Source of the DNA: an uncultured Acidobacteriaceae bacterium
GTDB lineage: Bacteria > Acidobacteriota > Terriglobia > Terriglobales > Acidobacteriaceae
Assembly: GCA_963841095.1 (NCBI GenBank)
Contig: CAWJBE010000002.1
Location: 2,278-66,277 of the forward strand
DNA: 64,000 nucleotides
Reading direction: 5' to 3'
Part shown: positions 29,520 to 45,438 of the stretch, one piece after another
How the letters are laid out: every line of letters begins with the position of its first letter
How positions within the stretch are numbered: position 1 is the first letter of the stretch
Position numbers and translations under genes: made by a program
The notes under the pieces: model-generated
What the model was told of the DNA's origin: nothing
The model's input: the letters and a program-made list of their open reading frames with translations, nothing else
The model's database searches: none

Positions 29520-29596
29520 CGGGGCGTAGCGCAGTCTGGTAGCGCATCTGCTTTGGGAGCAGAGGGTCGGGGGTTCGAATCCCTCCGCCCCGACCA
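29520..29596 (+). tRNA. tRNA-Pro (anticodon TGG)
   Basis: CGGGGCGTAGCGCAGTCTGGTAGCGCATCTGCTTTGGGAGCAGAGGGTCGGGGGTTCGAATCCCTCCGCCCCGACCA. Confidence 0.97.
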
Positions 29597-29741: not shown

Positions 29742-30833
29742 CTATCCCACTACCGTAGCTCCCTGCGCGGTCTCAATCATGGCAAGAATGTTTTCGAGCG
29801 GCGTGCCCGCCTGAACGTTGTGGCAGGAGCAGCAGATATATCCCGTTCCATCGCCGCCCAAAGTGTCAAGGCAATTGCGAACCTCGCGGCGAACATCCTC
29901 CGCCGTTCCTCGCGGCAGCGCAAACTGATTGTCGACTCCACCGTGAAATGTGACGCGATGACCAAATTCGCGCTTCAGCTCCCCCATATCCATTCCTGGG
30001 CACGCGTGCTGAATCGGATTGAGCACGTCTACGCCGCACTCCAGAATCGGCTCGATCAGGCGGCGCGCTGCTCCGTCAGTGTGATAGAAAACCCGCAAGC
30101 CATGCGCGTGGATCAAATCGCACCATCGCTTGAGCCTTGGCTGCAGATACCGCTTCCACATGGCAGGCGACATCAGGAGCGATCTTTGTCCCGCAATATC
30201 GTCGCTGATGAACACCAGGTCGAGTGCCTTGCCGGCGCGCGCAAAAAAGCGCAGCATCATCTCGGTTTGAATCTGCTCTACGCGATCCAGAATCGCATCA
30301 ACAAGTTCCGGAGCCTGCGCAAGATCCATCAGCGACTGCTCCAGGCCGCGCAACTGGCAATAAATTTCGAAGTGCGAAACCCACGGCCCGATCACGGCAA
30401 AGTGCTGCGCCGCCTCCCGCGCCTTCGCCACTGCGGAGTCGTAATCGAAATACTCCACTCTGGGCCACCACGGATAATCGGCGAGCGATTCCGGTGTGTC
30501 ATACCCGGCTAGTGGTGCTGAATCGAATTCAGCGTAATGAGCATCCCCAGCTTGAATCTGCTTCAGCGGCACGCCCCACATCGTGCGTTCGCCGCCCGTC
30601 TCGGCGCCGGCGCCGCTTTGTGCGCCTGCACGGCCGCCGGCAGCAGTCTTGTAATCCATGAACACCCAGACGATCTTGTCCAGGTTGAGCGCTCGGTACA
30701 TCGCAAGATCATCAGCAACGCCGCAATGTTTCCGCAGAACTTCCCCAACTTCGGGCGTGTACCAGAGATCGATCGGCAACCGGCCAACAGGCTCTCGGTT
30801 CAAGACAGCCAGGATGCGTTCTCGCGGAGTCAT
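29742..30833 (-). CDS. Uroporphyrinogen decarboxylase (MtaA/CmuA)-family protein
   Basis: MTPRERILAVL, LRGLEQ.LMDL, SDDIAGQ, YHTDG, DVLNPIQ, FHGGVDNQ, CSCHNVQ. Confidence 0.88.
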   Translation of the reverse strand: MTPRERILAVLNREPVGRLPIDLWYTPEVGEVLRKHCGVADDLAMYRALNLDKIVWVFMDYKTAAGGRAGAQSGAGAETGGERTMWGVPLKQIQAGDAHYAEFDSAPLAGYDTPESLADYPWWPRVEYFDYDSAVAKAREAAQHFAVIGPWVSHFEIYCQLRGLEQSLMDLAQAPELVDAILDRVEQIQTEMMLRFFARAGKALDLVFISDDIAGQRSLLMSPAMWKRYLQPRLKRWCDLIHAHGLRVFYHTDGAARRLIEPILECGVDVLNPIQHACPGMDMGELKREFGHRVTFHGGVDNQFALPRGTAEDVRREVRNCLDTLGGDGTGYICCSCHNVQAGTPLENILAMIETAQGATVVG

Positions 30834-30921
30834 CGTGCCAGACAATCTGCGCACCGCTTTCTCATTTCAGTGCCCGATCCTGAAGCACCACCCTGCCGCT
30901 GCTCGATCCCGTTGCTTTGGT

Positions 30922-33075
30922 TCACGCTTCCATCACAACAGCAGCGCATCGCGCCGGAATCGTCAGCGCACCATCAGTCGGCGCTGCATCAGGCTGATCC
31001 GGAGTCGCCACAACCAGTCTGCCCGCATTGGGCAACTTCACCTTCGCAGTGATTGATGCCTCTGAGCTCGGGTTGACCACGACCACTGCCCGCTTGCCGC
31101 TTTCTGCCAGGAACACTGAGTACGGAACTCCCGAATCAGCGCTTACGTCCGCTCCAAGCGTATCCCGGAACGCACCCGCCCAAAGAAATTCTTTGTATTT
31201 GCGGCGGAGATCGTCGATCTTCTTCCCGTACGCCATGGTCATCGGAAAATCGTGCAGGTGCCCTTTGTAGAGAAACGGCTCGTATTGGATCACGCATCGC
31301 TTCAGCAAAATCATGTTCAACTGTTCGCGATCGTCAAAGCCGCTCACTCCCGCGATCATCAGAGTATTCCTGGTGTCAAGGAACTGGCAGATCGGCGTCG
31401 CGCTCACGCCCGCTTCCGATACCGGAAAATACTGCATCAGCCAATCCTCCGGCCCTTCCCCGGCGAAGAGGAATTCCGGGCTCACCTTGTCGGCGTCGGC
31501 GCGCAACTGCGCAGACAGCGGCAGGTCACCGCCATAAATGTATCCCGGCGGAACGTATCCGTGCCCCGGCGCAAAGTTGTAAAGCGCGTTCGAGTGATGA
31601 CAAATCTCGTCCCACAACCAGCCCGTAGAGCCTAGCGCCAGAATTTTTTGAAATTCCTTCGCTGCAATCTCGCGATACGTCGGATCCTGAAAATCCATCA
31701 CCGCGCGCCGGCGCGTGTTAATGCCCGCCAATTGCGTCGGTGTCTCATAGTTGTAGCCACCCTGTTCATAGCGGATGCCATAAGGATCCTTGGCTTCGTA
31801 TTTGTACAGTTCGTCCTTGTACCACTGCGAAGTCAAATCGGCCCAGTTCAATTTGCCAAACAAAATGACGTTCACGCCCAGCGACTGCACCTTGGCGATC
31901 GAGTCATGAAACTCCTGCCACGTTCCCAGGTTCGGATCGGTGTCCTGCGAAGGATCGTCGCGATCCTGCCCGCCAATATTCCATCCGATCAGTTGCACCG
32001 CCTTCACTCCGTACTTGGCATACTCCTCTCCGTACTCAACAAACTTCTTGTACGAAATCGTGTAGTCTTCTTCCGGTGTGTTCATCCGCAGCATCGTCCA
32101 GGAGTGAACTTCCTTCGCCCATTCCGGCAACTGCGGAGTCTTGAACCACGTATTGCGCCATTCTTTGTAAACATCGGCGCCGGCATGCCAGTCGCCCTGG
32201 TAACCACGCATCACAATGGGTGCCAGCTTCTTTGTCGAATTGGGCTCGGCAAAAACAAAATGGCAGGTGCGGAACTCCAGATGCACCGGCCATCCCGAAA
32301 TCTCATCGGTCTTCGGAACAACGGCTCCGTGAACCACGCCGGGATGCTGCTCAAATGTGAATTCCAAATAATACGGCAGCGAGGGATCCGACATTTCAAC
32401 ATAGAGACCCTCACTCGGCGCCTGGATCAGGCAAAACATGCTCCGATTGGTTCCGAATGTCTTGATGGGAAAATCAACGCCCCAGTAGCCCTTTTCATTT
32501 CCAAAATTTGGGTGGATCTCGTCATTACCGAGGTTGCCGTACCACATAGTCCTTGCGGCCATCGACGCGTTCGGCAACGGTGGATTGAGATCGCCGAAGT
32601 AGGGATAGTCGATGGTCTCCACCGGCAACGCAGACTTGTTGTCGAGCACGCCGTCGAAAGTCAGCTTGCCGTTCGTCAAGGTCACAGTCCCGGTAAAGGT
32701 GATGGGCAGCACTCCACCGTGCTCGCTGAGCAGGTCCTTCCACACAATCCGCACCTGGTTGTCTCTGATCTTTTCAACGCTCGCTGCCTTTTGCTTTTGT
32801 CCCAGCACAAAGTTGGTCCTGCGTTTCGGCATTGGCGCGAGCATGCGGAACGACGCTCCAAGCGCAGGCCGCCGCTCAACAATCCAATGCGTTGGCTTGT
32901 GCTCCATCCGCGTGAGCGCGCCACTCGCGCGATCGAATGCGACCAGGAAATCGTTATCCTGCAGGACAACCTCTCCCGCCATCTCCGCCGCTTGCGCCGA
33001 GCTCAATTCCACGTCCGCGGTCAATGCGCCCATCGCGGCAAGTCCCGCCAGTTTATTGAATGTTCTCCGATTCAT
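30922..33075 (-). CDS. Tat-exported putative glycoside hydrolase (DUF6259-like)
   Basis: NRRTFNK Tat motif; barrel-like core with GWNIGGQD, WLWDE, FAGEG. Confidence 0.65.
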   Translation of the reverse strand: MNRRTFNKLAGLAAMGALTADVELSSAQAAEMAGEVVLQDNDFLVAFDRASGALTRMEHKPTHWIVERRPALGASFRMLAPMPKRRTNFVLGQKQKAASVEKIRDNQVRIVWKDLLSEHGGVLPITFTGTVTLTNGKLTFDGVLDNKSALPVETIDYPYFGDLNPPLPNASMAARTMWYGNLGNDEIHPNFGNEKGYWGVDFPIKTFGTNRSMFCLIQAPSEGLYVEMSDPSLPYYLEFTFEQHPGVVHGAVVPKTDEISGWPVHLEFRTCHFVFAEPNSTKKLAPIVMRGYQGDWHAGADVYKEWRNTWFKTPQLPEWAKEVHSWTMLRMNTPEEDYTISYKKFVEYGEEYAKYGVKAVQLIGWNIGGQDRDDPSQDTDPNLGTWQEFHDSIAKVQSLGVNVILFGKLNWADLTSQWYKDELYKYEAKDPYGIRYEQGGYNYETPTQLAGINTRRRAVMDFQDPTYREIAAKEFQKILALGSTGWLWDEICHHSNALYNFAPGHGYVPPGYIYGGDLPLSAQLRADADKVSPEFLFAGEGPEDWLMQYFPVSEAGVSATPICQFLDTRNTLMIAGVSGFDDREQLNMILLKRCVIQYEPFLYKGHLHDFPMTMAYGKKIDDLRRKYKEFLWAGAFRDTLGADVSADSGVPYSVFLAESGKRAVVVVNPSSEASITAKVKLPNAGRLVVATPDQPDAAPTDGALTIPARCAAVVMEA

Positions 33076-33165
33076 CGCTCTCTCGATTCTCCTCGTTCGA
33101 TGCGTCCAAACAATTCCTGCACATCGCGGCTGCCGTCGTGGAAGGCTCTGCTCCGAGCCATCAAA

Positions 33166-34779
33166 TTATTTCTTCGCCGCGCGAATTCTCACCACCGCCG
33201 CCGTCGTGCTTTGAACGTTCACCGCAATCGCGCCGGCTTTCACGTGGCCCACTGGCGTCCATTTGCCGCTCCACGGCGCATCATTTGTAATGCCGGCCCC
33301 GCCCAGGGTCCCCCTCATCAGCGCCGCATTTCCCGGCTCGCCATCCGTCAGCACCATCTGATCCACGATCGCCTTGTCGAAACCAGGCGCCTCAATCACA
33401 ACGTGCGCATCCGTCGCATCGTGCGTTGACGAGTGCGTTTTGTTGATGATCGTCACGAACAATTCCTTATCCGTGCCCACCGCGTAAGCCGTCAGGTTGA
33501 TCTTCTTCGCGCCGGCAACCGTCACCGGTTTCATATCGCCGTCGCTGCCCAGCGAGAACGCCTTCATCCCAAGCGCTTTCGCTGTCGCCTGATAGTTTCC
33601 GCAGCCTGAATCGCCGCACGGATTTGGATCGGGCACAATCGTGTCGGTTGGGATCCACGGGTTGTTGTGAAAATTCACACCGGCCATATGGTGCGCGGCC
33701 CACCAATGCATGTAGTCCAGCGCCCACAGCGCCGACGCAAACCCATTGCTTGCCCCCGGAACCCCGTGCAGGCAATCGTTCGCTTCGGTCATGCGATAGG
33801 GCACACCCATCGATACCAGCGGCGCGAGAACTGTGTTGTACACATATGGGTACGGGTGAAACTTTGCTGTCCCGCCGTTGAACGCGGCCTGTGTGCCGAT
33901 CGTCATATCGTCGTCCCATGCGCTCGAAAGCATGTCGTCGATGGCTTCTTGCGCGGTCGTGTCCCCCGGCCCTCCCCATACATAATGATGCTGAAGCACC
34001 TCGGCCAGCATTCCCGTGCCTTCCAGGTCCCGAGCAAACTGGACCGTCCAGGAAACACCGTCCTGCGGATTCGGCGTAAAGCTGCTCGTTGAGGAAACCG
34101 CCGTGTCGGGACCTGAAAACTTCGCGTCCGGCACAGCCTTGCGAATCACCTCCGCAAAGCGCCGCCAGTCGGCGAAGTAAGAAGGATACGCCGATCCCGG
34201 AACCCCAGGTGTCGTCTCATAGATCGCCGGGTCCAGCGTTGCGCCCGGGCGGGAGTGGTATTGGCTCACGTCGGGCTCATTGCCGATGGAAAAGCTGTCC
34301 AGGTTCGCCCGGTACTTGCTCCATATATATTGAACAATCTTGGCATCGTCCTCGGCGAGATTTGGATTTGCGCAGGAGCCCAGGTTCTCCAGCCGAACAG
34401 AATAAATCACCTTGATGTCGGCGGCACGCGCGAATTCGAATAGATTGTCGATATCTTTGAACGTCGGCGTTGGCGTAACGCAGTGTTCGCTGCGCCCGGA
34501 GCCATCAACCGTGCCGCCGCCCACTCGAATTTCCTTGATCCCGATATTGCGAAACAGCGTGATGAGCTGCGTATTCTCCGGGGAGAAGAAATTGCCCCGC
34601 ACTCCGTAGGCATTCGCCACTGCACTCTTGGTTTCAAAGCCCAGCCCAACATAATCGGCCGGAATCGCATACCCGCGTGCCGAAGTATCGACGGCTACCT
34701 TCACGGGAACTTGCGCGAGTGCGCCCCCCATCAAAGAAAAACAAAAAACAATCGCACCTACTGCCCTTGGGAACACCAT
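33166..34779 (-). CDS. GH79-like beta-glucuronidase
   Basis: Signal peptide; IRVGG, SIGNEPD (acid/base), RMTEAN (nucleophile), GASN.FASALWALDY, GVNFH. Confidence 0.8.
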   Translation of the reverse strand: MVFPRAVGAIVFCFSLMGGALAQVPVKVAVDTSARGYAIPADYVGLGFETKSAVANAYGVRGNFFSPENTQLITLFRNIGIKEIRVGGGTVDGSGRSEHCVTPTPTFKDIDNLFEFARAADIKVIYSVRLENLGSCANPNLAEDDAKIVQYIWSKYRANLDSFSIGNEPDVSQYHSRPGATLDPAIYETTPGVPGSAYPSYFADWRRFAEVIRKAVPDAKFSGPDTAVSSTSSFTPNPQDGVSWTVQFARDLEGTGMLAEVLQHHYVWGGPGDTTAQEAIDDMLSSAWDDDMTIGTQAAFNGGTAKFHPYPYVYNTVLAPLVSMGVPYRMTEANDCLHGVPGASNGFASALWALDYMHWWAAHHMAGVNFHNNPWIPTDTIVPDPNPCGDSGCGNYQATAKALGMKAFSLGSDGDMKPVTVAGAKKINLTAYAVGTDKELFVTIINKTHSSTHDATDAHVVIEAPGFDKAIVDQMVLTDGEPGNAALMRGTLGGAGITNDAPWSGKWTPVGHVKAGAIAVNVQSTTAAVVRIRAAKK

Positions 34780-34903
34780 TGCCGCCTTTCAATACTTGCC
34801 ATCTCCAATTTACGCCCGCGCCGCGGTCGACCGCTTCCTTGCGATTTTGCTGAAATGGCGCTTCAATCGATCGCCGTAAACTCTCGCTTGTTAATTGCCA
34901 CGC

Positions 34904-35584
34904 TTATTCGCGTGGATTCAGCACCCATTTAGGCACAAAACCACTTGTTGCAGCTTGCTCCGCGATTACCCTGCGAGCCTCCTCCACATGCCGGCGCGCA
35001 AGCTTCTCGGCCTTATCCGGCAAGTTCTTCTGGATGGCCTCCACGATCTGCAGGTGCTCTTCGTGAACAGTGCGCGGATCGCGTGAAGCTCGTACAGCCA
35101 TGCCGAGCACGCGATAGCCCTCGGCCAGACGGATCAAAATCTCGTTGCCCGACAAACTCACAATTCGGAGATGAAATGCCCGATCCGCGGCGCCCATCTC
35201 TTCAACCTTGTCTTGGTTTGAAAGCTCCAGGATCTCGTTCGCAATGCTCTTGAGCTCGTTCACATCGGCCTGTGATGCGTGGCCGCAGGCGCGGCGCGCG
35301 GCCAGCCCCTCAAGAAACTCCCGCACCTCGTATGCTTCGCAAAGACGCGCGGCGTCGATATTGCCTACAAACACGCCCAGGCGATCTACCGTGTCGACCA
35401 GGCCCAGAAATTGCAGCTCAACCAGAGCTTCTCGTACGCTTCCCTGCCCCACTCCCAGCTCTTTGGCCAAACTCTGCTGCGCCACGCGTTCGCCCGGCCG
35501 GCTCTCGCCAGATAAGATTCGGCGCTGAATCTCTTCTCGAACGTAGCGCCTAACAGTGGGCGACTGAATCCCTGGCTGTCGCAT
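34904..35584 (-). CDS. GntR/FCD-family regulator
   Basis: wHTH (QQSLAKELGV..GSVREAL) plus FCD (VREFLEG, DRAFH, EEH); start taken at MRQPG. Confidence 0.9.
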   Translation of the reverse strand: MRQPGIQSPTVRRYVREEIQRRILSGESRPGERVAQQSLAKELGVGQGSVREALVELQFLGLVDTVDRLGVFVGNIDAARLCEAYEVREFLEGLAARRACGHASQADVNELKSIANEILELSNQDKVEEMGAADRAFHLRIVSLSGNEILIRLAEGYRVLGMAVRASRDPRTVHEEHLQIVEAIQKNLPDKAEKLARRHVEEARRVIAEQAATSGFVPKWVLNPRE

Positions 35585-35785
35585 AGGCGTGCGCTCACCC
35601 ACCTTGTCTCTCCCATCGAATCTCTGAGTCTGAATGCGGTAGCGGCGCTGGCCCGCGCGCCATGAAACGATCGGAGTCTCTAAACTTTGAAGCCGCTTTA
35701 GGATTCCGCAGCGGTGAAGACCGTCTCCGATCTTCACCGCTGCGTCTGTGTTCAATTCGAGCTTCAGCACCTGCCGTGAGAGTTC

Positions 35786-38700: not shown

Positions 38701-39832
38701 GCTGAAACGTGCGGCCAAGCCCGTCGATCTTCGTTGTGTTGCTTAAGGTAAGCGTGTCCACCAGGTTCGTAAAATTGCTGCTCTGCATGGTGGCCGTCGG
38801 CAACGTCCCGGTATAACTCGGCGAGGCAGTGTAATAGGTGTACTGGAAGTCTGCTGTAAAGAAAGTCTTGTTGTGGCCGTTATATCCCGGCAGGATCACC
38901 GGCCCGCCGAAGATGCCTCCAAACGAGTTCTCCTTGAACCGTCCCGGCCGGTTCGGCAACGGTGTCGGGGTGTGCAGCAGTTCGTTCCGCTTGTTGAAGT
39001 AGTCGTTGGCGTTGAACATATCGTTCTCGTTGTATTCCCACACTTCGCCCTGGAACTTGTTCGTACCCTGCTTGGTGACAACGTTCACCACCGCGCCGTA
39101 AGAATGCCCGAGTTCCGTGGGGTCGTTGCCAGTCTGCAGCTTCATCTCCTGGATGGTGTCGGGAATCGGCGGAATAGTGATGCCGCCGAAAACCTCGGCG
39201 TTATCGTCCGCGCCGTTCACACGCACGTCGACTGCGCCGCTCTGCGTCCCGTGAACAAGAAAGGTTCCCGTGCTCGAGTTGCTGCCCGTAAACTGGACAC
39301 CGGCCGCAGTGGTGATCAGGGTCATAAAGCTCCGGCCGCCGCTGCCGCCAAAGATCGGCAGTTGCGTCGCCGCCGTGCTGTCGATCGTCGTGCCCAGTGA
39401 AGCGTCCTGCGCCTGCAGAAGTGGCGCCGCTGAGGTCACCGTCACCGAGACACTCGCCGAGCCTACCTGCAACAGAACATCTTGCGTCACAGTGTTCCCC
39501 AGGTGCACAACGATGCCGCTCACGTCATAATCCTTGAATCCGGACGCCACGACTTTCATGGAATAGGTTCCTACCGCAACGATAGGAAAGGAGTAGTCGC
39601 CGCTCGATGTGGATACGGCTATCTGGGTGACACCCGTATTCATATTGGTGAGCGTGCACTTTGCCTTCGGCACCAGGGCGCCGGTTGGGTCCTTCACCGT
39701 ACCGGTAATGCTGCCCATGTCGATTCCTGCCTGGGCGAACACCTGGCCGCAGAATATGAGCATGACTGCTGCGCAGATCGCTGTCACCAGGGTTCCCAAT
39801 TTCGGAAATGCCGATTCCTTGTGGTTCATCAC
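35786..39832 (-). CDS. TonB-dependent receptor (Oar-like, N-terminal carboxypeptidase-regulatory-like domain)
   Basis: 1348 aa; GSITGTVKDPTGA, VTVTSAAPLLQ, YDVRIDH, WAPRLSFAY, C-terminal RILQFAGKFFF. Confidence 0.93.
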   Translation of the reverse strand: MMNHKESAFPKLGTLVTAICAAVMLIFCGQVFAQAGIDMGSITGTVKDPTGALVPKAKCTLTNMNTGVTQIAVSTSSGDYSFPIVAVGTYSMKVVASGFKDYDVSGIVVHLGNTVTQDVLLQVGSASVSVTVTSAAPLLQAQDASLGTTIDSTAATQLPIFGGSGGRSFMTLITTAAGVQFTGSNSSTGTFLVHGTQSGAVDVRVNGADDNAEVFGGITIPPIPDTIQEMKLQTGNDPTELGHSYGAVVNVVTKQGTNKFQGEVWEYNENDMFNANDYFNKRNELLHTPTPLPNRPGRFKENSFGGIFGGPVILPGYNGHNKTFFTADFQYTYYTASPSYTGTLPTATMQSSNFTNLVDTLTLSNTTKIDGLGRTFQQGTMLDPATTRAIPCGSYDPITGLLASCASGTVGVITDSLINSGAKSAIVRDPYFQELGQPAGCPSLAGTTNWNTSYNGGPVPAACFNKLPAGRLDPNAVKLLQLFKPYPYNNVGIDPNTGLNTAGTHSYGSNFYELLAQPINTKQYDVRIDHTFSDKDSMFGTWSKYNNINQQAPPFAGPLEGGGSAPFWSTNPTYMVVVTETHVFNPNLINEYRMSDEHNWNTRMDAGNIDNTFGIPAQYGIQGIPQTKNNGGLPVFGIGSSISAFGSRVNVTWQKVGAWQFSDNLTKISGKHEWKFGAEYWWTYGNIAQLPYSRGNFSWGQYSNVPASGDGGPSMADFLLTPTAGNSTYLAAGGVSTAAAPLGGVNGYNGDNWNKSVYHAPYIAIYAVDSWKVTPALTVTLGIRDDYFGPYYSAGGTEGEGNFWMGGDGNQASGSAYYINHAGCATTMSASFKSLLAYDNIPIICQSNNAVNKTPQFNWAPRLSFAYRVTPRIVVRAGAGVQYGAFDSVGYGGTLGTNYPFRVSVQQGPQYSYRPQLVSNSTTGATTATMENTFGIVDMTSALNAYQPLGSVVLYGKPYNFHIPYTETLDTAVQWQFTNHDSIEARYVGNLGRQLESANPYHNSPRQALPTSTAIVTPCTATQLAANPYCENSPFMPDGTTTIPFPNLAANEGPMENTEQVSNYESGEVEYQHQFAGGFNMDANYVFARCWADSQAGQQNEGGPGNGRAPWIVGFGGYRADYDRCSNLAAHVFKLSGEYSLPFGKGTLVGGNANALEDAIIGGWKLDPIWISSSGVLSNISCQGTIGGNATNAGFTGPWFQTSGTAWSCNAPLVSGVNPYKAGPADLPRSKVNGYWNSAAFTAPAVGVASVGQQDFTPWGVRGNQIYGPGWYDVDLALHKEFKVTEATKLEIEATATNAFNHVHLNNPGTSSYTKPAETLTGGFGTITGDTSNNGSGRILQFAGKFFF

Positions 39833-40576
39833 GTATGCCTCCTAAAAGCACCATTTCAATGGTTCGGTCTCAGTTGTGAAGCTCCCATGTGAAGGTGAAA
39901 CTGTGGAAGTCGCTGACGATTGGCAACTTGGGCTGAAGTGCGACGCTCTCCTTGAATGCCTCACAGCGCAAACAGTTCGGCCCAGCCATAGCGCTGTGCT
40001 CGTTCTACTCGCTACTCCTGGTCCAGACAAAACCAATACAAATCTCCTGTGCATTGTCCGCCGACAAGACTCGTCCCTGCGACCAGTGTTTGTGAAGTGA
40101 ACTAACGGTAAATTAAAAGATTGCAGTCGCTCAATCGGCAATTCCGCCCGCTCAGCGAATTCCAGAGACCGCTCTCCAGAGTCAAAACTCCATTCCAAAA
40201 AGTGTAGTAATCGCCTCTGCTTTCTATAGTTAACGGTATGCCAGACCTTCGGCAGCGTTGGAGCGGTCTTCACCACTGATGATCGATATCGCCCAGTTCG
40301 AGGTACTGGTTGCTGACAGGATGGCTCGTAACCCTCATTTCAAACGAGAATCCGCTCAAATCGGTCTTTCCCCGGGTGCCCGTCAGCGCGGCCAAAGACT
40401 GGCCTCGCTGAGCGACTCGTCAAAGGCGAACCCGGCTCCAGGAAGCGTGGAAGAGTACCATAGTACTCGTAAAGACATATTCCATTCGAAGATTCCGCTC
40501 TCGGCAGACACGCTGCCGGCAATCCCGCATCAATAGGCTTTGCAAGCGTTAAGACTTTACCGTAAAATGGCTCTCC

Positions 40577-41935
40577 GTGCAGGAAATTGCTCCACTTCCG
40601 GTTGTTCGAGGGCAGGAGAAGGCCCCTTCCATCTCCGCCGACCAGAAGCGTGCCCTGGTCCAAAGAGTCGTCTCCAGCCAGGGGTTTTGTCGCGCTCCGG
40701 CCATGTGCGCCTTCCTTCTCTACATCACGGACCACGCCATCTCGGGTCAGGCCGAGAAGCTCAAGGAGCAGGCGATCGGCGCGGAGGTGCTGGGACGCAA
40801 GCCTAATTACGATCCCGCTGACGACAACATTGTCCGCGTTCGCGCTCATGAGCTCAGAGGCCGGCTCGAGAAATACTTCTCCACTGAAGGCATTGAAGAG
40901 CCGGTCATCATCACCATCCCGCGGGGTGCCTATGCTCCCGAGTTCGTGTTCCGGGAAACCGTTCCCTCTGGCGCCCCGGTTGCTTCCAGAGTCGCAGAAA
41001 TCGCGCCCAAAGCAGCAGTTGAGGAGCGGCCAAAACTGTCGCGCTGGTTCGTCTACGCCGCAATTCTCCTCGTCGCTGTTGCGGCGTCAATCTTTCTCAC
41101 CAGGGTTGTCGTATTAAGAAGCGAAAACCGAGCCGTCGCTGCCGGGCCCGGCGGCGCAGTTCAAGACTTCTGGGGACAGTTCTTCGCCAGGCCGAATGAA
41201 GAGCTCAAAGTAATCTATTCTGATCCGAGTTTTGCTTTGTGGCAGGACCTCAGCGGCAAGAGCCTGAACCTCGGCGAGTATCTCAATCACAAATATCTGA
41301 ACGTCAGCAACGACAAGTTCTTCAACGTTGCGGCGCGCCTTGTTACCGCCCCTGCCGATCTTGCAATCAGCACGCACATCGGAACGTTGGCGGGAGAATT
41401 CGGCGGTCAGGTCAGCCCGCGCTTTGCTCGAAATACCAGCGCCGAGGTTCTCCGATATGGCGATGCTGTCCTTATCGGCAGCCACCGCTCCAATCCCTGG
41501 GTGGAGATCTATGAGCCGGGTTTGAACTTCGAATTGGCGCAGGACCCGCACTCCGGAGCTCCCGCCTTCCAGAACCGCTCCCCGCGCCCGGGCGAGGCCA
41601 AAATTTACAGCATTCCCGCCATGTTCGATACCCAGCGCACCGAGGAAAAAGAATTCACGAGCTATGGGGTCATCGCGCTCCTCAAGGGTTGCGGTGACCG
41701 CGGCCTCACCGTGATTTTGGAAGGGTTGAACATGCAGGCCACCCAGGCAGTCGGGGATCTGGTCACCGATCCGCAGCGCCTTGATACCCTTCTCAAGAGC
41801 ATCGGTCATAAACCCGGCACTACCGTGGCGCCATTTGAGGCTCTTATTCAAATCAATTCTTTGCCCGCCGAGTATGACAACCCCAGGGTCGTAGCCTATC
41901 GTCTTCGCGATTCCGAACCCTGCGTCGGCAATTGA
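40577..41935 (+). CDS. Putative membrane-anchored one-component transcriptional regulator
   Basis: N-terminal LKEQAIGAEVLGRKPNYDPADDNIVRV....LRGRLEKYF...IPRGAYAP wHTH-like domain, single TM helix, extracytoplasmic C-terminal domain; divergent from the TBDR. Confidence 0.65.
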   Translation: MQEIAPLPVVRGQEKAPSISADQKRALVQRVVSSQGFCRAPAMCAFLLYITDHAISGQAEKLKEQAIGAEVLGRKPNYDPADDNIVRVRAHELRGRLEKYFSTEGIEEPVIITIPRGAYAPEFVFRETVPSGAPVASRVAEIAPKAAVEERPKLSRWFVYAAILLVAVAASIFLTRVVVLRSENRAVAAGPGGAVQDFWGQFFARPNEELKVIYSDPSFALWQDLSGKSLNLGEYLNHKYLNVSNDKFFNVAARLVTAPADLAISTHIGTLAGEFGGQVSPRFARNTSAEVLRYGDAVLIGSHRSNPWVEIYEPGLNFELAQDPHSGAPAFQNRSPRPGEAKIYSIPAMFDTQRTEEKEFTSYGVIALLKGCGDRGLTVILEGLNMQATQAVGDLVTDPQRLDTLLKSIGHKPGTTVAPFEALIQINSLPAEYDNPRVVAYRLRDSEPCVGN

Positions 41936-42076
41936 CGCCGATCTCTGCCCGCGCCTTCGATACACTCCACTCTTCGCCGAAATTTCCGTGCCACTCTGAA
42001 AATGAGGGTCTATCATCACCTCCAGCGGAGAAATCCGCTCTAATTCCTTTTCTAAATGAGGCAATAGCCCGCCCGC

Positions 42077-45019
42077 ATGAAGCAGAATCGTAGAACCTTC
42101 CTTCGCAATACAGCCTTGGCCGGAGGAGCAGTCACCCTCCGGAATGTCGCCGCTAGCACACCGCTTCCCTCACCATCCGGATTCGCTTCGGCAACCGCGC
42201 AAGCCCCAAGCGCCACCGGCTCCTCGGTTCGCGAGCAATTTCAATCGCCGCCGAAGAAGTACCGGCCCATCGCGCGGTGGTGGTGGCCTGGCAACGACGT
42301 CACTGACGCAGAACTGCGTCGCGAAGTCGACGTGCTCGACAAAGCGGGCTTTGGCGGCGCCGAAATCCAGGCCTTCAACAAGGGACTGCCGGCTAAATAC
42401 GTTTCTCCGGCGGAGCTCCAGCGGATCAATAGTTTCGCTACTCCATCTTTTTTCCGCCACGTTGCGGTCGCGGTGGAAGAGGCCCGTAATCGCGGCTTGT
42501 TCATCGACTACACCTTTGGCTCCGGTTGGCCCTTCGGAGGTGGCGACGCCATTACGCCGGAACTCACTACGATCGAATTGCGCTCAACGCATCTCTCCGT
42601 TGCCGGCCCCGCCACGCTCCATCAGAAGCTGCAAATCCCCTCAGTTACCGACGGCGACCCGCTCACTGGCTCTGACATCCTGAAGGGATTGCCCGATGGC
42701 TGGGCAGACCGCGTCAAGCAGCGCACGAAAGTCGTTGCTGTAGTGGCAGTGCGCGGCGAAGATGCGGAGTGGGACTTCCACGCCCTAGGTGGACCGAGAC
42801 AAACCGTCGTCAAGCCAGGCCAATTGCAAAGAGATTCATCGGTCGATCTCACTGCGCGCCTTCAGCCTGACGGCATATTGCAATGGGACGTTCCCGACGG
42901 AACCTGGCAGCTCTTCGTCTTTTGCTCCGTACCGAGGATGCAGAGAGTAAACGGAGCCGCAGGTGAAGGTCCCCAGCTTGTAATGGACCATCTGAGCACC
43001 GCGGCCTTCGCAGCCCACGCCAAACGCGTTGGCGACGACGCGGTTCCGTACATCGGCAAATTCTTCGGCAACGGATTGCGTGCAATCTTCTGTGACAGCC
43101 TTGAAGTGGCCGCGAATCTCTTCTGGAGTGATGATTTTCTTGCTGAATTCCGGCGCCGCCGCGGTTATTCTCTGCTCCCCTATCTTCCCATCATCCAGAT
43201 GCAGGGCCACGCGGAGCCCTTCGGAAAATTTGCCGATCTCCCCGTCTTCGAAATCGCGGAGGTAGGCGATCAGGTCCGCCACGACTATCGTCAAACCGTC
43301 TCTGACCTGATGATCGAGCGGTTTTACAGTCAGTTCAACAAATGGGCCCACGATCACAACCTGCTCTCCCGCACTCAGGCACACGGTTCTCCTGCCGACG
43401 TACTGCGAGTCTACGGAGAGGCCGACATCCCCGAAACCGAAGACCTCTACGACAATGGCTGCTACGACTTTCTCAAGATGGCCGCTTCGTCCGCGCACGT
43501 CTACGGCCGCGCCATCGTTGGCAGCGAATCATTTGTCTGGCCAACCGGCGCCTATCAAACAACGCCCGAGAAAGTGAAGCTCGCGGCCGACGAACTGCTG
43601 ACCGCCGGCGTCAACGCCATCGTCTATCACGGCTTTCCCTACATCGTTCCTGAGGTTCCTCCGCCCGGCTGGCACCCGTTCAACGGGATATGGCGAGGGC
43701 AACTACTCCTCGCAGTTCAATGAGCTCAATCCCTTCTGGCCCTACTTTGCCGCAGCTCAACAGCTACATCACGCGAGTGCAGTACATCTCGCAAGTTGGA
43801 ACAAATGTCGCCGCGGTCGCGCTCTATCGGAACGACCTCTCCACGGCGCTGACCGATGTGCCGCCTTCGCCAAAGTTGAACCAGGCCATCATGGATGCCG
43901 GTTACAACTACGATCACATCAATGCCGATTCACTCCTGCACTGTACCGTCCGCGAACAGATGTTGGTCACAACCGGCGGAGCGCACTACCGCGCTTTTGT
44001 TTTGCCTCCACTCGACGCCATCGGCGCGGCAGTGGCTGAAAAGCTTCAGGGCTTCGCCGCCGCCGGGCTTCCCGATTCTCTTTGCCGGCCAGGCCCCATC
44101 GCAAACCGACAGCCTCTCCGGAGAACTCCGACGCAACGCAAAGCGTGCAGACTGCGATGCGCAACCTTCACGACCACCGCAACGTCTGCTTCTGCACCAG
44201 CACCAGCGATGCAATCTCGAAACTCGGTGGCCTGGCGAATCCGAATATCAGGTTCCACAGCGAAACCTCTTTCCTTCATCCAGAAACAGATTGGCCGCTT
44301 GACCATGTACTTCCTCCGCAACGATTCGGATGCATCGCAACACCTCAATGCCGAGTTCGAAGCGGAGGGCATGCCTGAGCTTTGGGATCCGTGGACCGGC
44401 GAGATCGCATCCATCGCCGCCTCCCGCCGCAACGGCAATTGGGTTAAGCTCGAGCTCGATCTCCAGCCGCTTGCTTCCGCCTTGATCGTCTTCGATCCCG
44501 ATAGCAGCGCCGCTTCTGCGCCGGCCATCCAACCCATCCGAAAGTTAAAACGCGCGGAGCCCATCGGCACCGGCGGCTGGAGACTCACTGCTACCGGCCT
44601 CGTACCGACCGGAAAAACGGCCACGATCCAGTCGTGATTTGCCGGTGTTGATTGACTGGTCGCTCGACAGCGAACTCCGCGGTTTGTCAGGATGCGGCAC
44701 TTACACAACCACATTTACAGCTTCCGCAGCGGATGCCGGAAGTCGGCTCGTTCTCGATCTCGGCAACGTGAAAGATGTTGCCGAGGTTACGGTTAATGGC
44801 AAGCACGCCGCCTCGCTGCTCCTGCGCCCATACCAGGCCGACATCACCGATTTCGTTCGTCCGGGAGAAAATCAGTTGGAGGTCGCAGTCACAAACTGCC
44901 TCTTCAACAGCCTGGTCCTTCGCGATCCGCAGCCCTTTCACCCCGGTCCGACGGAGAATCCTTCCGGATTCACGTCCGCCGGCCTCATCGGTCCGGTCCA
45001 GATCAAGGAGATGGTCTGA
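42077..45019 (+). CDS. Tat-exported GH106-like (alpha-L-rhamnosidase-type) glycoside hydrolase with about six single-base frameshifts (43688-44635)
   Basis: NRRTFL Tat motif; RPIARWWWPG, GFGGAEI, DYTFGSGWPFGG, FCDSLE, PETE, GSESF, LDLGNV; fragments rejoin when single bases are removed. Confidence 0.78.
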
Positions 45020-45148: not shown

Positions 45149-45415
45149 ATGATTCCCAGCAACTTACAGGCTCTTTTCTGGGACACGAACCTCGACGCCT
45201 TCGCGCCGGAGGCCCATCCCGACTACACCATCTTCCGGGTGCTGGAGTTGGGCGACGAGGCAGCGGTGAGCTGGCTGCGGCAGACATTTGCCGAGTCGGA
45301 GATATGCCGCGTGCTCAAGAGCGAACGCCGCCTTTCCGAGAAATCTGCCAATTTCTGGGCACTCGTGTACAAGGTTCCGCCACGCGAAGTTGCGGCCCTG
45401 AGCCGCATCTGCTAA
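45149..45415 (+). CDS. DUF6922-like protein, putative antitoxin
   Basis: LFWDTN...IFRVLELGD...W...F motif; directly upstream of the AbiEii-like gene. Confidence 0.7.
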   Translation: MIPSNLQALFWDTNLDAFAPEAHPDYTIFRVLELGDEAAVSWLRQTFAESEICRVLKSERRLSEKSANFWALVYKVPPREVAALSRIC

Positions 45416-45438
45416 CCGCGCAGCCGAAGGAAACCGCC

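What the first reader, a model, noticed from the sequence alone, without database searches (positions are those of the whole stretch)
29742..45019. PUL-like glycan locus with an orphan URO-D/MtaA-family enzyme
Seen: TBDR, GntR, GH79-like, Tat-exported uncharacterised hydrolase and URO-D-family genes form one minus-strand run, with a divergent membrane regulator and a GH106-like gene. The URO-D protein keeps H-x-D and a C-terminal Cys (candidate Zn ligands), and no corrinoid protein or heme genes are adjacent. Established: GH79 includes beta-glucuronidases acting on (4-O-methyl)glucuronic acid, and GH106 includes alpha-L-rhamnosidases. Inference: the locus targets rhamnose/uronic-acid side chains such as arabinogalactan-protein, and the URO-D-like protein performs an undescribed step on a released (possibly methylated) sugar acid.
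Basis: partly seen in the sequence, partly recalled or inferred. Interest (0 to 1): 0.72.

Follow-up and report, generated by a model that had tools for sequence, protein, structure and literature searches.

The report
Glycan operon with B12-linked methyltransferase
A soil acidobacterium's sugar-chain degradation operon ends in an enzyme that is not a heme enzyme; it looks like a stray part of a vitamin-B12 methyl-transfer system encoded elsewhere in the genome, and it probably strips methyl groups from sugars that the neighbouring hydrolases release.

Summary
The gene run is real: TonB-dependent receptor, GntR/FCD regulator, GH79, Tat-exported DUF6259 protein and a URO-D-fold protein on the minus strand. 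A conserved membrane regulator and a GH106 gene lie divergently. GH79 keeps both catalytic Glu. DUF6259 folds like GH36/GH129 alpha-glycosidases. The GH106 frame is broken in the window but intact (978 aa) in near-identical soil contigs.

The URO-D protein is not HemE; a true hemE lies on another contig. It belongs to a tight clade, 54-90% identical across Acidobacteriota, Verrucomicrobiota, Lentisphaerota, Planctomycetota and Bacteroidota. Its closest solved relative is the methanogen enzyme MtaA, with H-x-D...C at MtaA's zinc positions.

It is orphan only locally. Within 10 kb of the orthologue, 7 of 80 loci have a corrinoid protein, some also with MtaB-like, DUF1638 and RACo genes. The own genome holds two such clusters on other contigs. 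RACo is present in 36 of 40 carrier genomes, against 8 of 120 other genera of the family.

Best reading: a dispersed, probably substrate-specific, component of a B12 methyl-transfer system placed in glycan operons, likely demethylating O-methyl sugars such as 4-O-methyl-glucuronate. The donor-side versus acceptor-side role and the substrate are inferred, not shown.

The parts
29520..29596 (+). tRNA-Pro (TGG). It marks the downstream boundary of the operon, 145 nt after the URO-D stop codon.
   Evidence: ARAGORN.
29742..30854 (-). Cytoplasmic URO-D/MtaA-fold protein ('URO-D_win', 370 aa). The likely true start is Met8, at window 30833. It is the candidate zinc methyltransferase of a corrinoid-dependent system.
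   Evidence: - Family scores: PF01208 E 1.5e-27; NCBIfam MtaA/CmuA 71-74 bits against cut-offs of 235-244, and hemE 19.8 bits against 303.
- Conservation: invariant M8, H258-x-D260, SDD, NPxQH, FHGG and ICCSCHN in 27 orthologues.
- Zinc positions: H258, D260 and C344 align to MtaA's zinc ligands.
- Structure: AF2 pLDDT 89.7; best Foldseek hits are MtaA 4ay8/4ay7, E 1e-14.
- No signal peptide.
30922..33075 (-). Tat-exported DUF6259 protein (717 aa): N-terminal beta-sandwich, (beta/alpha)8 barrel and C-terminal beta-sandwich. It is a likely retaining alpha-glycosidase of an unclassified family.
   Evidence: - PF19773 E 1.4e-10; RR leader MNRRTFNKLAG.
- AF2 pLDDT 71.9.
- Foldseek hits: GH129 5opq E 1e-24, GH36 galactosaminidase 9ayu TM 0.62-0.67, GH36 and GH101.
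- Invariant D489 (WLWDE) and E540 (AGEG).
- Five paralogues in the genome.
33166..34779 (-). Secreted GH79-type glycosidase (537 aa), a homologue of beta-glucuronidases.
   Evidence: - PDB phmmer: AcGlcA79A 5g0m/3vny E 2.6e-28; Burkholderia GH79 5bwi 9e-16.
- GNEPD and TEAN align with the catalytic Glu173 and Glu287 regions.
- Sec-type leader. No Pfam hit.
34904..35770 (-). GntR/FCD transcription regulator. The real start is probably about 60 codons downstream of the ORF start.
   Evidence: PF00392 + PF07729. The domain begins at residue 77. Orthologues of 228 aligned residues occur in L017 and L018.
35786..39832 (-). Acidobacterial-type TonB-dependent outer-membrane receptor (1348 aa).
   Evidence: PF13620 + PF25183, E 2.9e-139. 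It is syntenic in L014-L018.
40577..41935 (+). Divergent single-pass membrane protein (452 aa), a candidate transmembrane regulator. It matches no family model.
   Evidence: - No Pfam or NCBIfam hit.
- Conserved at 67-77% identity, divergent from the receptor, in L014, L015, L017 and L018.
- At least 8 paralogues in the genome.
- A hydrophobic stretch, WFVYAAILLVAVAASIFL, is visible in the sequence.
42077..45019 (+). GH106 alpha-L-rhamnosidase-family gene, frame-broken in the window (frames 1, 3, 1).
   Evidence: - PF17132 matches two ORFs and Glyco_hydro_2_N the third.
- Colinear with the 979-aa L023 GH106 in three frames.
- Four soil-metagenome runs show 8 one-base indels between 43688 and 44632.
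- Applying them gives one 978-aa ORF with a continuous PF17132 match of 265.7 bits.

Best explanation
The region is a receptor-linked glycan-utilisation operon of an Acidobacteriaceae soil bacterium.

**Periplasmic steps.** An outer-membrane TonB-dependent receptor takes up oligosaccharide. A secreted GH79 (beta-glucuronidase type), a Tat-exported DUF6259 enzyme (GH36/GH129-like fold) and a nearby GH106 rhamnosidase trim it.

**Cytoplasmic step.** The last gene encodes a zinc-site URO-D/MtaA-fold methyltransferase. It works with a corrinoid (B12) carrier protein, a second MtaA-like methyltransferase, DUF1638 and the ATP-dependent reductive activator RACo. In this genome these partners lie on another contig (C10:217293-221338); a second set is on C17/C23.

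**Most likely role.** It is the substrate-specific, donor-side enzyme (MT I). Its His/Asp/Cys-bound zinc polarises the methyl-ether oxygen of an O-methylated sugar released by the hydrolases. 4-O-methyl-glucuronate is the best candidate here. Co(I) of the carrier takes the methyl group, which is then passed to a thiol or folate acceptor.

**Shown.**
- The gene content and the fold.
- The residues at the zinc positions.
- The genomic linkage and co-occurrence with corrinoid machinery.
- That the protein is not HemE.

**Inferred.**
- Methyl transfer itself.
- Its direction.
- The MT I role.
- The substrate.
For: **1. Direct linkage to corrinoid genes in orthologues.**
- L001/L002 (Verrucomicrobia, 83% identical): corrinoid protein - MtaB-like - URO-D_win, with DUF1638, RACo, an S-methyltransferase and PurU next door, flanked by GH27-like and GH78 genes.
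- L005: URO-D_win beside a second URO-D and a corrinoid protein, next to GH78.
- L023/L099 (Acidobacteriaceae, 79%): URO-D_win - corrinoid protein - URO-D(HxC) - MtaB (PF12176, E 2.6e-154) - DUF1638 - RACo - GH106.
- L043, L051, L089 and L092 also have a corrinoid protein within 10 kb.
- In total 7 of 80 loci, against about 0.6 expected; binomial p about 4e-6 under a rough assumed rate of two corrinoid-protein genes per 5 Mb.

**2. Co-occurrence with the activator.**
- RACo (PF14574) is present in 36 of 40 genomes carrying URO-D_win, including 11 of 11 Acidobacteriaceae.
- It is present in 8 of 120 other genera of the same family. Fisher p about 1e-11.
- RACo rings in only 1 of 14 control genomes.

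**3. The own genome has the partners.**
- Two corrinoid proteins of 214 aa with URO-D paralogues, DUF1638 and RACo.
- An S-methyltransferase.
- A cobalamin riboswitch.

**4. Structure and active site.**
- The closest solved relative by sequence profile and by fold is MtaA.
- The zinc-ligand positions are occupied by invariant H, D and C.

**5. Placement in glycan loci.**
- The gene sits in varied glycan loci: GH78 or GH106 in 16 of 80 loci, sulfatases in 13, GH79 in 5. The carrier and activator usually lie elsewhere.
- This fits the rule that MT I is substrate-specific while the carrier and MT II are shared (PMC13391211).
- In L021 it is in one operon with an S-methyltransferase, two URO-D paralogues and a Na+/solute symporter.

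**6. A second GH79 link.** A second GH79-family gene lies about 2 kb from the C10 corrinoid cluster, and this is conserved in L095-L097.

**7. Not HemE.** A true hemE (406 bits) is on C26. The tree separates URO-D_win from it with 100/100 support.
Against: - No corrinoid gene lies within the window, and 73 of 80 orthologous loci have none within 10 kb. Many of those contigs are short.
- No partner methyltransferase is universal: MtaB-like in 15 of 41 carrier genomes, the HxC-type URO-D in 17 of 41, and neither in 16.
- The arrangement corrinoid protein - MtaB - URO-D_win (L001, L024) mirrors mtaCBA. That would make URO-D_win the acceptor-side MT II instead.
- High conservation (54-90% across phyla) and a single copy per genome would also suit a shared MT II.
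- The zinc motif is H-x-D...C, not the canonical H-x-C...C.
- All NCBIfam methyltransferase scores are far below their cut-offs.
- The Acidobacteriaceae carriers are related, so the co-occurrence counts are not independent events.
- No expression data could be found.
- No paper describes B12-dependent demethylation of sugars.
- The GH79's glucuronate specificity is not established. The loop that binds the carboxylate in AcGlcA79A aligns with a one-residue gap.
Confidence: 0.5

Rival explanations
1. URO-D_win belongs to the corrinoid system but is the acceptor-side enzyme (MT II, like MtaA). It would take the methyl group from the methyl-Co(III) carrier and put it on a conserved acceptor, either a thiol such as homocysteine or tetrahydrofolate. 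The MtaB-like protein and other URO-D paralogues would be the donor-side enzymes.
For: - The mtaCBA-like order corrinoid protein - MtaB - URO-D_win in L001 and L024.
- Very high conservation across phyla and usually one copy per genome.
- The closest solved relative, MtaA, is itself an MT II.
- Three invariant Cys plus His could form a thiol-activating zinc site.
- PurU and an S-methyltransferase next to the L001 cluster point to one-carbon flow.
- Like methanogen mtaA, the gene is usually unlinked from the carrier gene.
Against: - A shared MT II has no obvious reason to be the terminal gene of substrate-specific glycan operons (GH79, GH78, GH106, sulfatase) in several phyla.
- The paralogue that keeps the exact thiol-type H-x-C...C motif is the C10 type, which is fixed beside the carrier.
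- An S-methyltransferase (PF02574) is available as the acceptor-side enzyme in the own genome, L001 and L021.
- 16 of 41 carrier genomes have neither MtaB nor the C10-type partner.
Confidence: 0.25
2. URO-D_win is a corrinoid-independent cytoplasmic enzyme of sugar-acid catabolism that merely shares the URO-D/MetE TIM-barrel fold. It could be a decarboxylase or a zinc-dependent transferase or hydrolase acting on a uronate-derived product.
For: - No corrinoid gene in the window and none within 10 kb in 73 of 80 loci.
- Only the C-terminal half matches PF01208, and every methyltransferase model scores far below its cut-off.
- URO-D proper is a cofactor-free decarboxylase of carboxymethyl groups.
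- An FCD-type GntR regulator typical of sugar-acid operons is in the operon.
Against: - RACo co-occurrence is 36/40 against 8/120.
- Adjacency to carrier proteins is about tenfold above expectation.
- The residues at MtaA's zinc positions are invariant.
- It is in an operon with an S-methyltransferase in L021.
- MtaA ranks above all URO-D decarboxylases by fold and by profile.
Confidence: 0.15
3. URO-D_win is a second uroporphyrinogen decarboxylase (HemE isoenzyme) that happens to lie next to glycan genes.
For: Only the Pfam URO-D match and source annotations reading 'uroporphyrinogen decarboxylase'.
Against: - The hemE model scores 19.8-20.7 bits against a cut-off of 303.
- A genuine hemE (406 bits) lies on C26.
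- The tree separates the two with 100/100 support.
- There is no heme gene context.
- Present in only 1 of 121 genus-level genomes of the family, which is not the pattern of a housekeeping gene.
Confidence: 0.01

Closest known systems
MtaA, methylcobalamin:coenzyme M methyltransferase of Methanosarcina mazei (PDB 4ay7/4ay8)
   Same: - Best sequence-profile hit (E 1.2e-6) and best fold hit (E 1e-14, TM 0.67-0.72).
- Same URO-D-type TIM barrel.
- The His and the C-terminal Cys of its zinc site are kept at aligned positions.
- Works with a separate corrinoid protein, and its gene is often unlinked from it.
   Different: - Only about 18% identical.
- The middle zinc ligand is Asp, not Cys, and there is an extra invariant CC-x-C-H cluster.
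- Scores far below the MtaA/MtbA/CmuA model cut-offs.
- The host bacteria are not methanogens and are not expected to make coenzyme M (general knowledge; not tested here).
- The gene sits in glycan-degradation operons.
Corrinoid-dependent O-demethylase systems of acetogens and Desulfitobacterium (MT I / corrinoid protein / MT II / activating enzyme, e.g. MtvABC, Odm/Vdm)
   Same: - Four-part logic: a substrate-specific URO-D-superfamily MT I, a small B12 carrier, MT II and a RACo-type activator.
- MT I genes are dispersed while the carrier and MT II are shared (PMC13391211; PMC10418091).
   Different: - The known substrates are aromatic methyl ethers in strict anaerobes (PMC13391211, PMC10418091; general knowledge). 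Here the context is carbohydrate-active enzymes in Acidobacteriaceae and PVC-group bacteria.
- No sequence-level membership could be shown, because no reference sequences were available in the tools.
- Aliphatic sugar methyl ethers are chemically harder leaving groups.
MtgBCD glycine-betaine demethylation / split methionine synthase with RamA-like activator and DUF1638 in aerobic Roseobacters (PMC12478193, PMC5764234)
   Same: - Precedent for corrinoid methyl-transfer networks in oxygen-respiring bacteria.
- Same accessory pair, a RACo/RamA-like activator plus DUF1638.
- A homocysteine S-methyltransferase domain serves as a methyl sink.
   Different: - The donor-side enzyme there is of the MttB family, not the URO-D family.
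- The substrate there is a quaternary amine.
- There is no link to glycoside hydrolases.
Type 1 mlp gene clusters (MtaA-like proteins with corrinoid protein and Ram/RACE; Kountz & Balskus, PMC10418091)
   Same: Uncharacterised MtaA-like URO-D-superfamily proteins clustered with a corrinoid protein and an activator, outside methanogens, and lacking a folate methyltransferase.
   Different: - The mlp clusters are reported only from obligate anaerobes, mostly Firmicutes, and are tied to methyl-sulfur or methyl-selenium chemistry.
- They have no glycan context.
- URO-D_win is usually separated from its carrier.
Cytochrome P450 6-O-methyl-D-galactose demethylase of marine Bacteroidota (porphyran utilisation; from my own knowledge, not checked here)
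   Same: A functional analogue: an enzyme encoded in a polysaccharide-utilisation locus that removes a methyl ether from a released sugar so that it can enter central metabolism.
   Different: Completely different chemistry (oxidative, O2- and redox-partner-dependent, releasing formaldehyde) and a different fold. No B12 carrier is involved.

Membership tests
HemE (uroporphyrinogen decarboxylase, TIGR01464) | Scores above the curated equivalog cut-off (302.95 bits) | tested here: not met
   19.8 bits; 20.7 bits in the genome scan.
HemE (uroporphyrinogen decarboxylase, TIGR01464) | Is the genome's heme-pathway decarboxylase (no other copy; housekeeping distribution) | tested here: not met
   A genuine hemE is at G000:C26:116865-117863, 406 bits. 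URO-D_win is found in 1 of 121 genus-level genomes of the family. The tree split has 100/100 support.
MtaA/MtbA/CmuA methylcobamide methyltransferases (TIGR01463, NF040654, NF041608) | Scores above the family or equivalog cut-offs | tested here: not met
   70.9 against 235.4, 57 against 400, and 32.2 against 600 bits.
MtaA/MtbA/CmuA methylcobamide methyltransferases (TIGR01463, NF040654, NF041608) | URO-D-type TIM-barrel fold closest to MtaA | tested here: met
   AF2 pLDDT 89.7. The Foldseek top hits are 4ay8/4ay7, E 1e-14 to 1e-13, ahead of all UROD structures.
MtaA/MtbA/CmuA methylcobamide methyltransferases (TIGR01463, NF040654, NF041608) | Zinc motif H-x-C-x(n)-C | tested here: not met
   The aligned positions are H258, D260 and C344, i.e. 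H-x-D...C, invariant in 27 orthologues. Zinc binding itself cannot be tested here.
Corrinoid-dependent methyltransferase system (MT I / carrier / MT II / activator) | A small B12-binding carrier protein and a RACo-type activator in the same genome | tested here: met
   Two 214-aa proteins with B12-binding_2 + B12-binding domains, and two RACo genes, on C10 and C17/C23. A cobalamin riboswitch is present.
Corrinoid-dependent methyltransferase system (MT I / carrier / MT II / activator) | Genomic linkage or co-occurrence of the candidate enzyme with the carrier and activator across genomes | tested here: met
   - A carrier lies within 10 kb in 7 of 80 loci, p about 4e-6.
- Complete clusters occur in L001 and in L023/L099.
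- RACo is present in 36 of 40 carriers against 8 of 120 background genomes.
Corrinoid-dependent methyltransferase system (MT I / carrier / MT II / activator) | Catalysis of methyl transfer to or from Co of the carrier | not testable with these tools
   This needs anaerobic enzyme assays.
GH79 (beta-glucuronidase / heparanase family) | Sequence similarity to characterised GH79 enzymes, with both catalytic glutamates | tested here: met
   5g0m/3vny E 2.6e-28; 5bwi 9e-16 over residues 28-530. GNEPD and TEAN align. There is no Pfam hit for the N-terminal catalytic domain.
GH79 (beta-glucuronidase / heparanase family) | Activity on beta-GlcA or 4-O-methyl-GlcA | not testable with these tools
   Specificity was not determined. 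The region aligned to the carboxylate-binding loop carries a one-residue gap.
GH106 (alpha-L-rhamnosidase, PF17132) | Match to the family model over its length in one open frame | tested here: inconclusive
   In the window the gene is split over three frames. With the 8 indels seen in four metagenome runs it becomes one 978-aa ORF scoring 265.7 bits.
Clan GH-D-like alpha-glycosidases (GH36 / GH129 / GH101 / GH27 / GH31), considered for DUF6259 | Three-domain fold: beta-sandwich, (beta/alpha)8 barrel, beta-sandwich | tested here: met
   Foldseek hits: 5opq (GH129) E 1e-24; 9ayu/9awt (GH36) TM 0.61-0.67; GH36 AgaA; GH101. The model is of moderate quality, pLDDT 71.9.
Clan GH-D-like alpha-glycosidases (GH36 / GH129 / GH101 / GH27 / GH31), considered for DUF6259 | Sequence membership of a CAZy family and identified catalytic Asp pair | tested here: inconclusive
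   Only DUF6259 is matched, and the profile has no significant PDB hit. Invariant D489 and E540/D544 are candidates only. No dbCAN tool was available.
Bacteroidota-type polysaccharide utilisation locus (SusC/SusD pair) | A SusD-like lipoprotein gene next to the TonB-dependent transporter | tested here: not met
   None of the main ORFs between 29742 and 45019 matches a SusD family. The transporter is the acidobacterial CarboxypepD_reg + OMP_b-brl_4 type. 'PUL-like' is an analogy only.

The most novel reading that the evidence does not exclude
URO-D_win defines a widespread, uncharacterised family of B12-dependent O-demethylases for methyl-ether sugars, such as 4-O-methyl-glucuronate from arabinogalactan-proteins or xylans, or O-methyl-rhamnose or -fucose from moss, algal and cyanobacterial glycans. 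These would be used by aerobic or facultative polysaccharide degraders of soils, peat, lakes and guts. The removed methyl groups would feed into methionine or folate one-carbon pools. This route would differ from the only described sugar demethylation route (oxidative, by P450), and it would make degradation of methylated glycans depend on B12.
Probability: 0.35. Interest if true: 0.85.

Novelty: new variant of a known kind. Interest (0 to 1): 0.64.

Why it matters
O-methylated sugars are abundant in plant, moss and algal cell walls; 4-O-methyl-glucuronic acid in xylan and arabinogalactan-proteins is one example. To my knowledge, apart from one P450 system for 6-O-methyl-galactose, the fate of their methyl groups in bacteria is essentially unknown.

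If this family is a B12-dependent sugar demethylase, three things follow.
- It would explain why corrinoid methyltransferase genes, usually read as markers of anaerobic methylotrophy, are common in Acidobacteriota and Verrucomicrobiota genomes.
- It would tie glycan turnover in soils and peat to B12 availability and to methionine and one-carbon metabolism.
- It would supply an oxygen-independent ether-cleaving catalyst for carbohydrate chemistry.

The case is directly testable, because culturable carriers and all the partner genes are identified here. As a by-product, DUF6259 is placed structurally among GH36/GH129-like glycosidases, which flags a probable new glycoside hydrolase family.

Tried and rejected
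- **HemE reading:** rejected on model scores, a true hemE elsewhere and the tree.
- **A single conserved operon partner:** an unbiased all-against-all clustering of ORFs within 10 kb in 80 loci, and Pfam tallies of 149 near neighbours, found none. The context is heterogeneous: rhamnosidases, sulfatases, URO-D paralogues, AraC regulators.
- **Family-level co-occurrence with the URO-D protein itself:** uninformative, because only 1 of 121 genus representatives carries it. I switched to the genomes behind the loci.
- **MtaB-like or the HxC-type URO-D as obligatory partner:** neither is (15/41 and 17/41).
- **RNA evidence for co-induction:** no RNA run holds the stretch.
- **Literature:** nothing on DUF6259 and nothing on B12-dependent demethylation of 4-O-methyl-glucuronate or methyl sugars. 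Acetogen MtaA is a 29.7-kDa protein, smaller than the ~40-kDa URO-D-fold proteins here, so it may not be a useful analogue for the MT II reading; its family was not checked.
- **Profile search of DUF6259 against PDB sequences:** nothing significant. Only the fold comparison worked.
- **Pfam at E up to 1 for the membrane regulator and the GH79:** nothing.
- **Zinc-site geometry:** could not be measured, because model coordinates are not exposed to scripts.
- **Promoter and terminator scans:** at background level and not used.

Full report
**What is in the window.**
Five genes run head-to-tail on the minus strand from 39832 to 29742, with intergenic gaps of 15-124 nt.

| Window coordinates | Product | Evidence |
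|---|---|---|
| 35786-39832 | Outer-membrane receptor of the acidobacterial type, 1348 aa (CarboxypepD_reg + OMP_b-brl_4, E 2.9e-139) | |
| 34904-35770 | GntR/FCD regulator | |
| 33166-34779 | Secreted protein, 537 aa, GH79 type | |
| 30922-33075 | Tat-leader protein, 717 aa, carrying DUF6259 | |
| 29742-30854 | URO-D-family protein, 370 aa, no signal peptide | |

The run ends 145 nt before a tRNA-Pro gene.

The 537-aa protein has no Pfam hit. It matches the solved GH79 beta-glucuronidases of Acidobacterium capsulatum (5g0m/3vny, E 2.6e-28) and a Burkholderia GH79 over its whole length. Its GNEPD and TEAN motifs align with the catalytic acid/base and nucleophile.

Divergently, a 452-aa single-pass membrane protein (40577-41935) matches no family model. 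It is conserved at 67-77% identity in the same divergent position in four related genomes, and it has at least eight paralogues in this genome.

It is followed by a GH106-family gene (42077-45019).

The same order (regulator, receptor, GntR in two of them, GH79, DUF6259 in two of them, URO-D) recurs in Acidobacteriaceae genomes L014, L015, L017 and L018.

**The GH106 gene.**
In the window the gene is split over frames 1, 3 and 1. It is colinear with an intact 979-aa homologue in L023.

Contigs from four soil-metagenome runs of three studies are otherwise near-identical to the window. For example, there are 3 differences and no gap over 2751 bases across the URO-D and DUF6259 genes.

Between 43688 and 44632 they carry eight single-base indels, together with a raised substitution density. 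Applying these indels gives one 978-aa frame with a continuous PF17132 match of 265.7 bits.

The window's copy is therefore either locally mis-assembled or a strain-specific pseudogene. An intact form exists in the population.

**The DUF6259 protein.**
An AlphaFold model built on 14 sequences (pLDDT 71.9) shows a beta-sandwich, a (beta/alpha)8 barrel and a C-terminal beta-sandwich.

Foldseek places it next to the following:
- the GH129 3,6-anhydro-D-galactosidase (5opq, E 1e-24);
- GH36 alpha-galactosidases and galactosaminidases (TM up to 0.67);
- GH101.

A sequence profile finds nothing in the PDB. No paper mentions the domain.

It is best described as a periplasmic, probably retaining, alpha-glycosidase of an unclassified family. 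Invariant D489 (in WLWDE) and E540 (in AGEG) are candidate catalytic residues. The genome has five paralogues.

**The URO-D-family protein is not HemE.**
- The hemE model gives 20 bits against a cut-off of 303.
- MtaA/CmuA-type models give 57-74 bits against cut-offs of 235-400.
- A genuine hemE (406 bits) lies on contig C26.
- In a tree with the genome's own paralogues and hemE, the window protein and its orthologues fall on the far side of a 100/100 split from hemE.
- Only 1 of 121 genus-level genomes of the family carries the gene, which is the pattern of an accessory gene.

The family is nonetheless large and strikingly conserved. There are more than 2000 database proteins. Identity is 54-90% across Acidobacteriaceae, Verrucomicrobiota, Lentisphaerota, Planctomycetota, Bacteroidales and others.

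Twenty-seven orthologues share invariant H258-x-D260-G, SDD, NPxQH, FHGG and I-C-C-S-C-H-N motifs.

The only solved relative found by profile is MtaA, the methylcobalamin:coenzyme M methyltransferase of Methanosarcina (4ay7). In that alignment H258 and D260 fall on MtaA's His-x-Cys, and C344 falls on its third zinc ligand.

A confident model (pLDDT 89.7) has MtaA as its best structural match. URO-D decarboxylases and MetE follow.

**It is orphan only locally.**
Orthologues lie directly beside corrinoid machinery in several genomes.
- **L001/L002** (Verrucomicrobia, 83% identity): B12-binding carrier, MtaB-like protein, then the URO-D orthologue. DUF1638, RACo, an S-methyltransferase (PF02574) and PurU are adjacent, and GH27-like and GH78 genes flank the cluster.
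- **L005:** GH78, the orthologue, a second URO-D and a carrier.
- **L023/L099** (Acidobacteriaceae, 79% identity): the orthologue, a carrier, an HxC-type URO-D, MtaB (PF12176, E 2.6e-154), DUF1638, RACo and then a GH106 that is 57% identical to the window's.

Seven of 80 loci have a carrier within 10 kb, against about 0.6 expected by chance (that expectation assumes about two carrier genes per 5-Mb genome).

The window's own genome encodes two carrier clusters elsewhere.
- **C10:217293-221338:** RACo, DUF1638, an HxC-type URO-D and a carrier.
- **C17/C23 junction:** a URO-D, a carrier and RACo, followed by an S-methyltransferase.

The genome also has a cobalamin riboswitch.

The C10 cluster is syntenic across eight related genomes. 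In four of them, including this one, a second GH79-family gene lies about 2 kb away.

**Co-occurrence.**
RACo, the ATP-dependent reductive activator of corrinoid proteins, rings in only 1 of 14 control genomes.
- It is present in 36 of 40 genomes that carry the URO-D orthologue, including all 11 Acidobacteriaceae.
- It is present in 8 of 120 other genera of the same family.
- Fisher p is about 1e-11.

The carriers are related to each other, so these are not independent events. The association does, however, hold across five phyla.

By contrast, MtaB-like genes (15/41) and the HxC-type paralogue (17/41) are facultative partners.

**How it most likely works.**
Corrinoid methyltransferase systems consist of four parts:
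- a substrate-specific donor-side enzyme (MT I);
- a small carrier protein;
- an acceptor-side enzyme (MT II);
- an activator.

The carrier and MT II are commonly shared among several MT I enzymes (PMC13391211; PMC10418091). RamA/RACo plus DUF1638 serve B12 reactivation even in aerobic Roseobacters (PMC5764234; PMC12478193).

The window-type enzyme is scattered through substrate-specific glycan loci.
- GH78 or GH106 rhamnosidases occur in 16 of 80 loci.
- Sulfatases occur in 13 and GH79 in 5.
- In L021 it shares an operon with an S-methyltransferase, two URO-D paralogues and a Na+/solute symporter.

The carrier and activator usually lie elsewhere. This is the expected footprint of an MT I.

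I therefore propose the following. After periplasmic trimming by GH79, DUF6259 and GH106, an O-methylated monosaccharide enters the cytoplasm. Zinc bound by His, Asp and Cys activates its methyl-ether oxygen. Co(I) of the carrier abstracts the methyl group, and the group passes on to homocysteine or folate.

4-O-methyl-glucuronate is the most economical candidate in this locus. This rests on two points of established knowledge, not tested here:
- GH79 enzymes release GlcA and 4-O-methyl-GlcA from arabinogalactan-proteins.
- In those glycans, O-4 of GlcA carries either rhamnose or a methyl group.

That would also explain the recurrent rhamnosidase neighbours.

Methyl transfer, its direction and the substrate are inferences. 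I give the corrinoid-system membership about 0.75, and the full MT I / methyl-sugar reading about 0.5 or a little less.

**Rivals.**
- **MT II rival (0.25).** It rests on the mtaCBA-like order in L001 and L024, on the high conservation and single copy, and on MtaA itself being an MT II.
- **Corrinoid-independent sugar-acid enzyme (0.15).** It fits the lack of local partners and the weak model scores, but it does not explain the RACo association or the invariant zinc-position residues.
- **HemE.** Excluded.

**Novelty.**
I found no paper on DUF6259, on URO-D-family genes in glycan loci, or on B12-dependent demethylation of methyl sugars.

The parts are of known kinds. The combination is new in two respects:
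- an uncharacterised, phylum-spanning MtaA-like clade with an H-x-D / CCxCH site;
- its embedding in carbohydrate-active enzyme operons of Acidobacteriaceae and PVC-group bacteria, at a distance from its carrier.

It is not independent evidence, but I reproduced its gene architecture in L021.

Noticed in passing
window 43333-44906: Relative to four soil-metagenome runs, this stretch carries 8 one-base indels and 16-20 substitutions per about 1.4 kb. The rest of the locus is about 99.9% identical with no indels. This is either local mis-assembly or a decaying GH106 copy.
   Followed up: yes
window 38031-38909 (inside the TonB-dependent receptor gene): A patch of about 40 substitutions plus two compensated indel pairs (38158/38167 and 38472/38475) against the same metagenome contigs. 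It looks like a strain-variable, frame-preserving region, possibly a surface loop of the receptor.
   Followed up: no
G000 contigs C17:559-1398 and C23:428-2086: Both contig ends begin with the same RACo N-terminal sequence (MAVTLTINGQSIQ...). The assembly probably breaks inside one RACo gene, and C17 and C23 probably abut. Joined, they would give URO-D paralogue - corrinoid protein - RACo - 445-aa unknown - S-methyltransferase.
   Followed up: partly
G000:C10:213916-215475: A second, Tat-leader GH79-family gene (Glyco_hydro_79C) lies about 2 kb from the RACo-DUF1638-URO-D-corrinoid protein cluster. The neighbourhood is conserved in L095, L096 and L097.
   Followed up: partly
G000: C21:60056-62209, C12:159171-161363, C13:80367-82430, C11:19515-21542, C17:204873-206936: Five further DUF6259 paralogues (58%, 56%, 40%, 25% and 23% identical), several with RR leaders. 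This is an expanded family of unclassified GH36/GH129-like proteins in this genome.
   Followed up: partly
window 45304-46077 (+): An AbiEii-type nucleotidyltransferase toxin (type IV toxin-antitoxin, PF08843, E 2.5e-18) lies directly after the GH106 gene.
   Followed up: no
window 46194-48944 (-) and 49205-49876 (-): A 916-aa protein with a Big_3_5 Ig-like domain and a weak CarboxypepD_reg match, followed by a second GntR/FCD regulator.
   Followed up: no
window 27503-28270 (+): A short-chain dehydrogenase whose good NCBIfam matches include L-rhamnose 1-dehydrogenase Lra1 (239 bits, below the 400 cut-off) and glucose 1-dehydrogenase. It lies beyond the two tRNA genes from the operon. A possible sugar-oxidation link was not pursued.
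   Followed up: no
G000:C17:79693-81039: A further URO-D-fold paralogue (448 aa, H-S-C-G and FNSIHNVQ motifs) groups in the tree nearer to the window type than to HemE. It has orthologue-like relatives in Tannerella (L087) and Akkermansiaceae (L072).
   Followed up: partly
L051 (Opitutaceae bacterium D2-102, record not labelled as a MAG): A genome that appears to be from a cultured isolate carries the URO-D orthologue directly next to an HxC-type URO-D, a corrinoid protein, an AraC regulator and DUF1638. It is a practical organism for experiments.
   Followed up: no
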